Shown here piece after piece: positions 58,843 through 61,370 of a DNA stretch of 64,000 nt; within the stretch, counting starts at the first letter, position 1, and each line of letters opens with the position of its first letter. The notes beneath the pieces are model-generated. The model ran no database searches and had not been told where the DNA came from. It was given only the letters and a program-made list of their open reading frames with translations. The stretch is taken from NCBI RefSeq assembly GCF_009914755.1, contig NC_060925.1; one strand, given 5' to 3'. The position numbers and the translations under genes are program-made. This stretch comes from the human T2T-CHM13v2.0 reference genome, Homo sapiens.

Positions 58843-59065
58843 GAGCATGTGACCTTTGAGGACATGGTGGTGGACTTCAGCCAGGAGGAGTGGAGGCAGC
58901 TGGAGCCTGCCCAGAGGGCCCTGTACTATGATGTAATGCTGGACGCCTTCAGGCTTCTGGTCTCTGTAGGACATTGGTTACCAAAGCCAAACATCACCTC
59001 CCTGCTGGAGCAAGAGGCAGAGCCATGGGCGGTGGACTCTGGAGTTCCCCAAGGCATGTACCCAG
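58843..59065 (+). pseudogene. KRAB A+B domain exons joined without an intron
   Basis: [62 protein letters not shown], open through both boxes. Confidence 0.95.
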
Positions 59066-61370
59066 GTGAGATGGGAGCCCTTCAGGGCTGAGAGAAGCCT
59101 GTCCATGCTTGCTCCCTGGTTTCTCTGTCTGCATGTGCTCTCTAATTCTTCAGAGCAAATTTACTACTCAGTCTTAATTCTTCACAGCAAATTTACTACT
59201 CAGTCTTAGTGAAGATTTACCAAGCACCCATTTTGCTGTGAGTGACGACACCAAGTCCTCATCTCCACTGAATTTACATTCTTGGTGAGGGAGTGGGGGA
59301 GACAAACAATAAATCGGTAAAATAATAATAATAATAAAATGAGTTGGATGATTACAGATTGTGATGAATGCTGAGAAAATGAAAATGAGTGATGAGGTAG
59401 ACTAGGATGGGGGTGAGGAGACTTTAGCAGAGAGATGAGGGATAGCCTCTCTAAGGAGGTGACATGTGACTTGAAGCCTGAGCCATGAGGCAGTCTGAGA
59501 GAATACTAGCATTTCAGGCAGAGGAAACAGCAGGTGCAAAGGCCTGAAGTGATGCATCAGTCAGTTCTCGCATAGTAAAAGCACTCTGACCTCAGTGGCT
59601 TAAACCAAATAATTGTTTATAATTCATATGTCTGTGGGACAATGGATCCAGGCTGGGCCCTGACATGTGCCTGTAGGGTGATTGATAGGTAGCAGAGATA
59701 TCCCAGCCCACTGACAGGCAATTTCCCATTGGCATCAGGTGGGAAGAGTGGCCTGTCACCAGAGTCCAGGAGGAATGGCCAATGTGGGAGAGGGTCACAT
59801 TAGGGTCCCTCCACATCAATAACAGACGGGGTGTTGCTCTCTTGCCCAGGCTAGAGTGCAGTGGTATGAGCATGGTTCACAGCAACCTCGACCTTCTGGG
59901 CTCGGGTGATCCTCCTGCCTCGGCCTCCTGAGTAGCTGGGACTGCAGGTGTGTGTCACCATGCCTAGCTAATTTTGTGTGTGTGTGTGTGTGTGTGTGTG
60001 TGGAGATGGGGACTCAGCATTTTGCCCAGGCATGTCTTGAACTCCCAGGCTCAGGCAGTCCTCCTGCCATGGCTGCCCAAAGTGTTAAGATTACAGGCAT
60101 GAGGCCCTGTGCCTGGCTAAGAATCCATTTATTTGCATTTTTCAGCTTCTAGAGGCACCCACATTCCTTGGCTATGGCCTTGTCCATCTTCACAGTCAGT
60201 AAGGGGTGGTCAAGTCTCACATCTTATTCACTCTGACTGTGACCCTTCTGCCTCTTTTCCACATTTAAGGACACTTGTGATTACACAGGTCCACTCAGAT
60301 AATCCAGTATAATTTCTCTATCTTAATGTCAGCTGATTAGCAATGTTAATTCCTCCCTCCCATGTAATGGGAAACATACAGGTTCTATGGTTAAGATGTG
60401 GGCATCTTGGGAAGCCACTATTCTGCCAGTCACCCCTGGCTTACCTTTTTTTTAAAAATTGAACTTTTCACTGAAGTATAACAATATGGGGAAGGTACCC
60501 ACATCACCCCTCTAGGCCACTGTGGGGTCAGGGTAGGGGCAGCATGCACCCAGGTCATGGCTGTGCAGAGATGGCTGGGTAGCAGGGCAAAAAGGGAGTC
60601 CTGCCAGGAAGCAGGAGGAAGGAGTGCATTTGTTCATTCATTAAGCATGTATATTGAGGTCTTGCTATGGGATAGAGATACAGTGGTGAGCAAGGTGGAC
60701 AGAAACTCCTACTCTCAGGGGGTTCCCATTTAGTGAAACAGACAAAATAAGGCAGATCAAAGTACTTTAATACACCAAGGGTCATTTATCTTCCTCCTAG
60801 TGATGCATGTTGCAGCTATTCCTGTTTGTGGGAAGCAGATAGGCTCCTTTACATCTAGAGTGAGATGGCACAACAGCATATGCTGCCAGGAAGAAGCTGG
60901 GTGTCAGCAGACTTTCCCCATGCAGCACCTTTTTCTCTGTTGCCACCTGGCATCATGGAGGCCACTGTAGCTGGGGCCTGGCTGCCACATTGCTCCTTCC
61001 AAGTCCAGTGCATCTGTGCATCTGAGTGCTCTCTCCCTGGGCATCCCCTCTGCACCCTCCTCTGTGCTCCCCTCACAGACTCTACCCATATTCCTTGTGC
61101 CAACTGTTTTTCCCTTCCTCTCCTCTTCCTTTCCTTATTCTGTTCTTTCCTCTTCCTTTCCTTATTCCTTATTTTCCTCTTCCTTATTCTGTTTTTCCCT
61201 CTCTCTCTTCCTTTCCTGGTTTGCAAAACTATATTTTTAAATAGTCAAAGCCACTTGCACCTTGAACATTTCAAAATCATTAGTTTCATCCTTCCTCTTC
61301 CCATCTCACCACAAACTCTTTTGCCCTGGAACAGAGATTAAGGGACATTTCCAGTTTTTGCTTCTTTCAG
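59066..61370 (+). other. Retained intron of the parental ZNF gene, containing L2, MLT1, AluJ and a CT-rich tract
   Basis: Donor CCAG|GTGAGA; acceptor tttttgcttctttcag|AC. Phase-1 junction G|AC gives Asp of DLETRPK. Confidence 0.9.
59824..60119 (-). mobile_element. AluJ-type SINE with (TG)n in the linker, inside the retained intron
   Basis: 'gacggggtgttgctctcttgcccaggctagagtgcagtgg'...'gcccaaagtgttaagattacaggcatgag'. Confidence 0.88.

What the first reader, a model, noticed from the sequence alone, without database searches (positions are those of the whole stretch)
58843..61370. Semi-processed pseudogene: a frozen splicing intermediate
Seen: KRAB-A (127 bp) and KRAB-B (96 bp) abut at 58969|58970 with canonical exon sizes and no intron. 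The next intron (2305 bp) is retained with intact GT/AG sites. Established: KRAB-ZNF genes carry an intron between the A and B exons. Inference: the template was an incompletely spliced RNA, recording ancestral germline splicing order with the last intron removed last. An 'unprocessed/duplicated' label would be wrong.
Basis: partly seen in the sequence, partly recalled or inferred. Interest (0 to 1): 0.7.

Follow-up and report, generated by a model that had tools for sequence, protein, structure and literature searches.

The report
Half-spliced gene copy inside LTR element
This is a dead copy of a chromosome-19 zinc-finger gene made from a half-spliced RNA (three introns cut out cleanly, the last one kept); it has no poly(A) tail and sits between two remnants of one LTR retrotransposon, most likely because it landed in that element and was later trimmed by deletions, though capture by the element itself is not excluded.

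Summary
Observation confirmed and extended. Against its chr19 parent (ZNF135; name recalled) the copy has three exact exon junctions (introns of 663, 1182 and 1723 nt gone), keeps the last intron, and has no promoter homology, so it came from RNA. It also records an out-of-frame isoform: exon 2 runs 346 nt past its usual donor. The kept intron is not intact: 948 of 3204 nt were deleted, not spliced. The copy ends 95 nt after the stop with no poly(A) or target duplication, and stands in place of ~1.4 kb of one THE1-like LTR element: 143 bp of internal sequence on the left, the last 37 bp of the LTR on the right. Best reading (0.45): L1-type insertion into an older element, then clustered microhomology deletions. 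Close rival (0.35): template-switch capture by the LTR element, which would be a first for this family in human among the papers searched. 'Splicing order' is over-read: one molecule, and terminal introns are spliced last by default. Semi-processed pseudogenes are a known, rare class; this locus is not in the two published lists checked.

The parts
57114..58347 (+). Host L1-like repeat, left part (5'-inverted piece at 56738-57114); label recalled
58348..58354 (+). 7-nt filler, a near copy of the preceding 7 nt, at junction A; ~370 bp of host L1, the 5' LTR and ~355 bp of internal sequence are absent here
   Evidence: (L1 resumes +368 to +398 in 9 of 11 copies)
58355..58497 (+). Internal fragment of an LTR element (THE1-like; label recalled), ending in an A-rich run 16-20 nt before the gene copy
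58498..58531 (+). Last 34 nt of parent exon 1, joined to exon 2 (663-nt intron gone)
58532..58842 (+). Exon 2 (ATG at 58566) read through its usual donor at 58598|58599 to an alternative GT donor 346 nt further on in the parent; out of frame, with a stop; 102 nt shorter than the parent within a short tandem repeat
58843..58969 (+). KRAB-A exon (127 nt)
58970..59065 (+). KRAB-B exon (96 nt), joined to KRAB-A (1723-nt intron gone)
59066..61370 (+). Retained last intron, GT-AG, with 948 nt of the parent's intron deleted at 59825|59826 (junction C)
59826..60118 (-). Antisense Alu shared with the parent; its tail and one target duplication fall in the deleted block
61371..63080 (+). Zinc-finger exon, disabled: 4 premature stops in the parent's frame, indels +4, -3, -12
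63081..63175 (+). First 95 nt of the parent's 3' UTR; no poly(A), no target-site duplication (junction B)
63171..63207 (+). Last 37 bp of the LTR of the same element family, precise LTR end, same orientation
   Evidence: (26 of 29 loci)
63208..63280 (+). Host L1-like repeat resumes for ~30 bp, then jumps to an L1 3' end

Best explanation
The locus is a disabled RNA-derived copy of the chr19 KRAB zinc-finger gene in which three introns are removed at their GT-AG sites and the last is kept, and it was likely reverse-transcribed by L1 machinery into an older THE1-like LTR element and later trimmed by deletions. Shown: the RNA template, the isoform (alternative exon-2 donor plus retained last intron), the LTR remnants on both sides, the lack of poly(A) and target duplication, and three 1-2 kb losses within 5 kb. 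Inferred: a near full-length, non-productive or incompletely spliced transcript was primed at the A-rich site ending 58497; microhomology-mediated deletions, probably one complex event, then removed (A) the 5' LTR region with ~370 bp of host L1, (C) 948 nt of the intron and (B) the rest of the 3' UTR, the tail, the 3' target duplication and ~1.4 kb of the element. RNA origin alone: 0.97. The confidence below is for the whole route.
For: Three exact junctions. The copy looks younger than the element family: copy-parent intron divergence 6.0% at non-CpG sites (131/2190) against 9.7% pooled (681/7028) for 21 LTR-LTR pairs, all 21 above 6.0 (range 6.2-14.6); transversions 2.8% vs 3.7%. An L1-endonuclease-like T|AAAA site lies 16-20 nt before the 5' junction, the usual duplication length (peak 14-16, PMC2912911 passages). 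The 5' end is near full length. The same parent made a second, ordinary tailed retrocopy inside an L1 on chrX. Short similarity at junctions B and C (5 of 6 nt each; chance 0.024 and 0.023) and a templated filler at A fit end-joining deletions. No second chimeric copy found. L1 made thousands of human retrocopies, LTR elements 3 in the published screen.
Against: Neither L1 hallmark survives: longest A run after the 3' end is 4, longest word shared by the flanks is 6 nt. Three separate kb-scale losses are needed, while the other L1 pieces of the window align without such gaps. Junction B falls only 37 bp from the LTR end. The endonuclease-like site is weak evidence: 6-12% of element positions have one at 1 mismatch, 40-45% at 2. 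By transversions 7 of 21 LTR pairs are about as close as copy and parent (at most 2.9%), so the ages overlap. The left fragment's own branch is short (2.6% vs mean 6.1% in 15 unselected copies), though the right piece's is long (9.1% vs 4.5%); together inconclusive.
Confidence: 0.45

Rival explanations
1. LTR-mediated capture. Reverse transcription of the THE1-like RNA began at the LTR end, switched after 37 nt onto the co-packaged half-spliced gene RNA, skipped 948 nt at a short repeat, ran to the RNA's 5' end, switched back to the element's internal sequence, and the incomplete product went into the host L1 with one precise LTR end and one end-joined end. One event would give all junctions.
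For: Same family and orientation on both sides with ~1.4 kb replaced (1362-1420 in 18 of 19 copies); no poly(A) or duplication; 3' rather than 5' truncation; similarity at junction B. These match three of the four filters of Tan et al. 2016. The right end is the exact LTR terminus, and the switch lies 30-38 nt after the LTR's polyadenylation hexamer (32 of 41 LTR ends), i.e. in the part copied first (inference from retroviral replication). The losses cluster on this composite only. Breaks capture LTR-element and spliced cDNA in mouse zygotes (PMC4516963 passages) and Ty cDNA in yeast (PMC11724301 passages).
Against: Tan et al. state both LTRs should coexist; here the 5' LTR is absent and the 3' LTR is 37 bp, with no priming tract for the second strand. 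The copy dates younger than the family mean. No daughter copies. Similarity at the 5' switch is 0-3 nt and depends on assumed CpG decay. Low prior.
Confidence: 0.35
2. Endonuclease-independent patch: a break in a pre-existing LTR element was repaired by reverse-transcribing a nuclear, partly spliced RNA primed at the short match in the 3' UTR, with loss of ~1.4 kb of target.
For: Explains missing tail, missing duplication, target loss and nuclear-type template at once; 18 of 21 such L1 insertions carry target deletions (PMC1920257 passages); fits the dating.
Against: Junction A still needs its own deletion; a 4.7-kb insert reaching exon 1 is long for this class (13,383 bp over 21 loci); the endonuclease-like site would be chance.
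Confidence: 0.17
3. DNA-level duplication of the gene followed by loss of three introns through conversion by a cDNA.
For: One intron with its repeats is present.
Against: No promoter or downstream homology; start lies inside exon 1; three exact losses including a non-standard donor; different chromosome.
Confidence: 0.02

Closest known systems
Semi-processed (partially spliced) pseudogenes: rodent preproinsulin I, the TMF1 insertion in CYBB, the eight GENCODE cases (FAM108A1 x6, TRMT11, one on chrX)
   Same: RNA-derived copy lacking some introns and keeping at least one (PMC4151081 passages; PMC3491395 passages and Table S3).
   Different: No poly(A) or duplication here; also carries an alternative-donor exon extension; embedded in an LTR remnant. 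No ZNF135 or ZNF859P row in the GENCODE supplement.
LTR-mediated retrocopies (Tan et al. 2016; FAM8A1 in HERV-K14)
   Same: Same-family LTR sequence on both sides, part of the element replaced, short similarity at a junction, no L1 hallmarks, 3' truncation.
   Different: LTRs not intact, no secondary copies, intron retained. The three human rows of Table S8 are flanked by HERVK14 (2) or MER4 (1), parents on chr6 and chr5.
Non-classical (endonuclease-independent) L1 insertions and cDNA patches at breaks
   Same: No tail, no duplication, target loss, short junction similarity.
   Different: Insert is a long cellular pre-mRNA reaching exon 1; pre-insertion state could not be checked.
Retrocopies as fossils of old splice forms (Shemesh et al. 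2006)
   Same: Preserves an alternative donor used tens of millions of years ago.
   Different: Seen only as a reference-list entry; paper not held, so the comparison rests on recall.

Membership tests
Semi-processed pseudogene | Precise loss of parent introns at splice sites | tested here: met
   three junctions, all GT-AG in the parent
Semi-processed pseudogene | At least one parent intron retained | tested here: met
   59066-61370, 7.5% divergent from the parent intron, 169/2249
Semi-processed pseudogene | Homology confined to the transcribed unit | tested here: met
   starts in exon 1, ends in 3' UTR; none in ~4 kb upstream
Semi-processed pseudogene | Coding disablement | tested here: met
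   4 stops and a +4 frameshift
L1 TPRT retrocopy | 3' poly(A) tail | tested here: not met
   longest A run 4; may have been deleted
L1 TPRT retrocopy | Target-site duplication | tested here: not met
   longest shared word 6 nt, not at the ends; may have been deleted
L1 TPRT retrocopy | Endonuclease site 7-20 nt before the 5' junction | tested here: inconclusive
   present, but chance 6-45%
LTR-mediated retrocopy | Same LTR family on both sides, discontinuous by more than 20 bp | tested here: met
LTR-mediated retrocopy | No L1 hallmarks | tested here: met
LTR-mediated retrocopy | Short similarity at both switch points | tested here: inconclusive
   5 of 6 nt at the 3' switch (chance 0.024); 0-3 nt at the 5' switch
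LTR-mediated retrocopy | Both LTRs present | tested here: not met
   5' LTR absent, 3' LTR 37 bp
LTR-mediated retrocopy | Element and gene copy absent together from outgroups | not testable with these tools
   no relatives held for this genome
THE1 / MaLR element (flanks) | Match to the curated family model | not testable with these tools
   no repeat library; label recalled. Anatomy measured: LTRs ~350-375 bp, internal ~1.55 kb, element ~2.3 kb

The most novel reading that the evidence does not exclude
A THE1/MaLR element captured a half-spliced KRAB zinc-finger pre-mRNA by template switching right after starting reverse transcription, and the aborted product was fixed in the primate germ line: a MaLR-mediated gene capture in the human genome, a fossil of which cellular RNAs these non-autonomous elements were copied alongside.
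Probability: 0.33. Interest if true: 0.7.

Novelty: new member of a known kind. Interest (0 to 1): 0.45.

Why it matters
Firm part: a rare human semi-processed pseudogene, not in the GENCODE 2012 list of eight, whose RefSeq span (61332-63172) covers only the last exon and hides ~2.8 kb of the copy. It shows that an out-of-frame exon-2 donor and last-intron retention co-occurred on one germ-line RNA roughly 30 million years ago (calibration recalled), which long-read data can test today. If the capture reading holds, it adds the MaLR family to the elements that duplicate genes in primates and gives a handle on how these elements were copied. It does nothing known for the cell: the reading frame is dead.

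Tried and rejected
Internal splicing as the cause of the 948-nt gap: although the right end is an AG after the Alu's T-run, none of 12 registers gives GT-AG, GC-AG or AT-AC. Later insertion in the parent: rejected because the missing block holds the shared Alu's tail and one of its target duplications. Read-through splicing of the parent into a downstream LTR on chr19: no chr19 match among 41 hits for 63168-63325. Junction B is formally compatible with a GT donor and an AG present in 17 of 41 LTR ends, but that needs a source copy and a tail; none found. chrX copy as sister chimera: no, it runs ~850 nt further, has a short A tail and sits in an L1; unique differences over 616 columns are chr1 26, chrX 19, parent 5. 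Dating the flanks by their own branch length: first try biased by selection, unbiased try used 15 of 18 stretches (2 partial, 1 no hit dropped); with the LTR end about 6 changes in 150 sites, between the two predictions. LTR-pair dating used 21 of 29 loci (8 dropped: no pair, partial or wrong pair). The jump in the host L1 at ~63240 was not counted as part of the cluster, since a chr7 L1 has a similar jump. The parent's name could not be confirmed by a tool. Literature: 'ZNF859P' 0 papers; THE1/MaLR plus template switching plus retrocopy gave only Tan 2016; one search gave nothing on ZNF135 in the 20 rows listed. Tan's Dataset 1, figures and methods supplements were unreadable and could bear on the 518 LTR-flanked human copies they filtered out.

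Full report
Observation. The KRAB-A (58843-58969) and KRAB-B (58970-59065) exons abut, and a 2305-nt GT-AG intron follows. A search of the own genome with 58494-63300 gave 64 matches; only chr19:61.156-61.165 Mb (83-91%) and one chrX piece (90%) stand above the ~65-73% background of other zinc-finger genes and short repeat hits.

Anatomy against the parent. The copy begins 34 nt before the end of exon 1 and shows no homology in ~4 kb of upstream DNA. Intron 1 (663 nt) is gone. Exon 2 is read through its usual donor, still visible at 58598|58599, to a GT donor 346 nt further on, and from there 1182 nt are gone. Intron 3 (1723 nt) is gone. Intron 4 is kept. All three joins fall on GT-AG sites, which DNA duplication cannot give. 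The extended exon 2 is out of frame and holds a stop in both parent and copy, so the template could not have made the normal protein. The last exon has four premature stops and indels of +4, -3, -12.

The intron is not intact. The parent's is 3204 nt; 948 nt are missing at 59825|59826. The block includes the tail and one target duplication of an Alu whose body both loci share, so it was lost from the copy. No register gives a splice pair; the two ends match at 5 of 6 nt.

The ends. Homology stops 95 nt after the stop codon, about 850 nt short of where the tailed chrX copy ends. There is no A tail and no target duplication. Left of the copy, 58355-58497 matches the internal part of an LTR element, starting 343-360 nt after the 5' LTR in 20 of 22 measured copies; right of it, 63171-63207 matches the last 37 bp of the LTR in 26 of 29 of the same loci, same strand. 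The element has LTRs of ~350-375 bp and is ~2.3 kb long; I call it THE1-like from recall. About 1.4 kb of it is replaced by the copy. Its 5' LTR is absent, and the host L1 resumes on the right ~370 bp beyond where it stops on the left (9 of 11 L1 copies), with a 7-nt templated filler at the left join.

Age. Copy and parent introns differ at 6.0% of non-CpG sites (131/2190). The two LTRs of related elements, identical at insertion, differ at 9.7% pooled (21 of 29 loci usable; range 6.2-14.6). By transversions the figures are 2.8% and 3.7%, with overlap. The copy thus looks younger than the average element, about 30 million years by a recalled calibration. Dating the flanks themselves was inconclusive.

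Mechanism. RNA origin is shown. The route is inferred. L1 insertion into an older element followed by clustered deletions has the prior, the dating, a weak endonuclease-like site and the chrX precedent, but needs three kb-scale losses that other L1 pieces in the window do not show: 0.45. Capture by the LTR element explains all joins in one event and passes three of four filters of Tan et al. 2016 (passages, section 6 and Table S8 rows seen), but fails their expectation of two LTRs and has no daughter copies: 0.35. An endonuclease-independent patch: 0.17. These weights are judgement, not computed.

Known context. Semi-processed pseudogenes are an established class (Kazazian 2014, passages). GENCODE 2012 found eight; I saw seven full rows and the start of the eighth (chrX), and neither gene name occurs in that supplement. 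Missing tails and 3' truncation are common among recent retrocopies (bioRxiv 2020.06.07.139212, passages). Human terminal introns are spliced almost only after cleavage (10.1101/611020, passages), so 'last intron last' is the default and one fossil adds little. The review PMC5470649 was seen as passages and reference list. No paper in the library names ZNF859P; one paper met four of five terms on MaLR capture and lists no such human case. Subscription papers and later GENCODE releases were not searched.

Verdict. Real; a new member of a rare known class, with an unreported isoform and an LTR setting that leaves a one-in-three chance of something more unusual. Primate orthologs decide it. Interest 0.45.

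Noticed in passing
L013:4101-5591 (G000:C23:100356101-100357591): A second, younger, 5'-truncated retrocopy of the same parent with a short A tail, inside an L1; about 2.5% non-CpG divergence.
   Followed up: yes
window 61332-63172: The RefSeq span of ZNF859P starts at an alternative AG 36 nt before the last exon and leaves out exons 1-4 and the retained intron (58498-61331).
   Followed up: partly
window 63208-63280 and L057 (G000:C7:54158860-54159110): Two unrelated L1 copies jump from nearly the same internal point to the 3' end, about 1 kb skipped; possibly a recurrent short-repeat jump.
   Followed up: partly
window 58478-58492: A 15-A run where related elements have an 11-nt A-rich motif broken by G; it mimics a poly(A) tail but lies 5' of the copy.
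   Followed up: yes
window 30489-30839: A lone LTR related to the flanking family, 78-79% identical to L024's LTRs.
   Followed up: no
window 5517-6770, 17040-17855, 56738-58347: Three 5'-inverted L1 pieces; also two near-equal L1 3' parts head to tail at 46300-48663 and 48677-50639.
   Followed up: no
window 59143-59206: 32-nt tandem duplication in the retained intron, absent from the parent.
   Followed up: no
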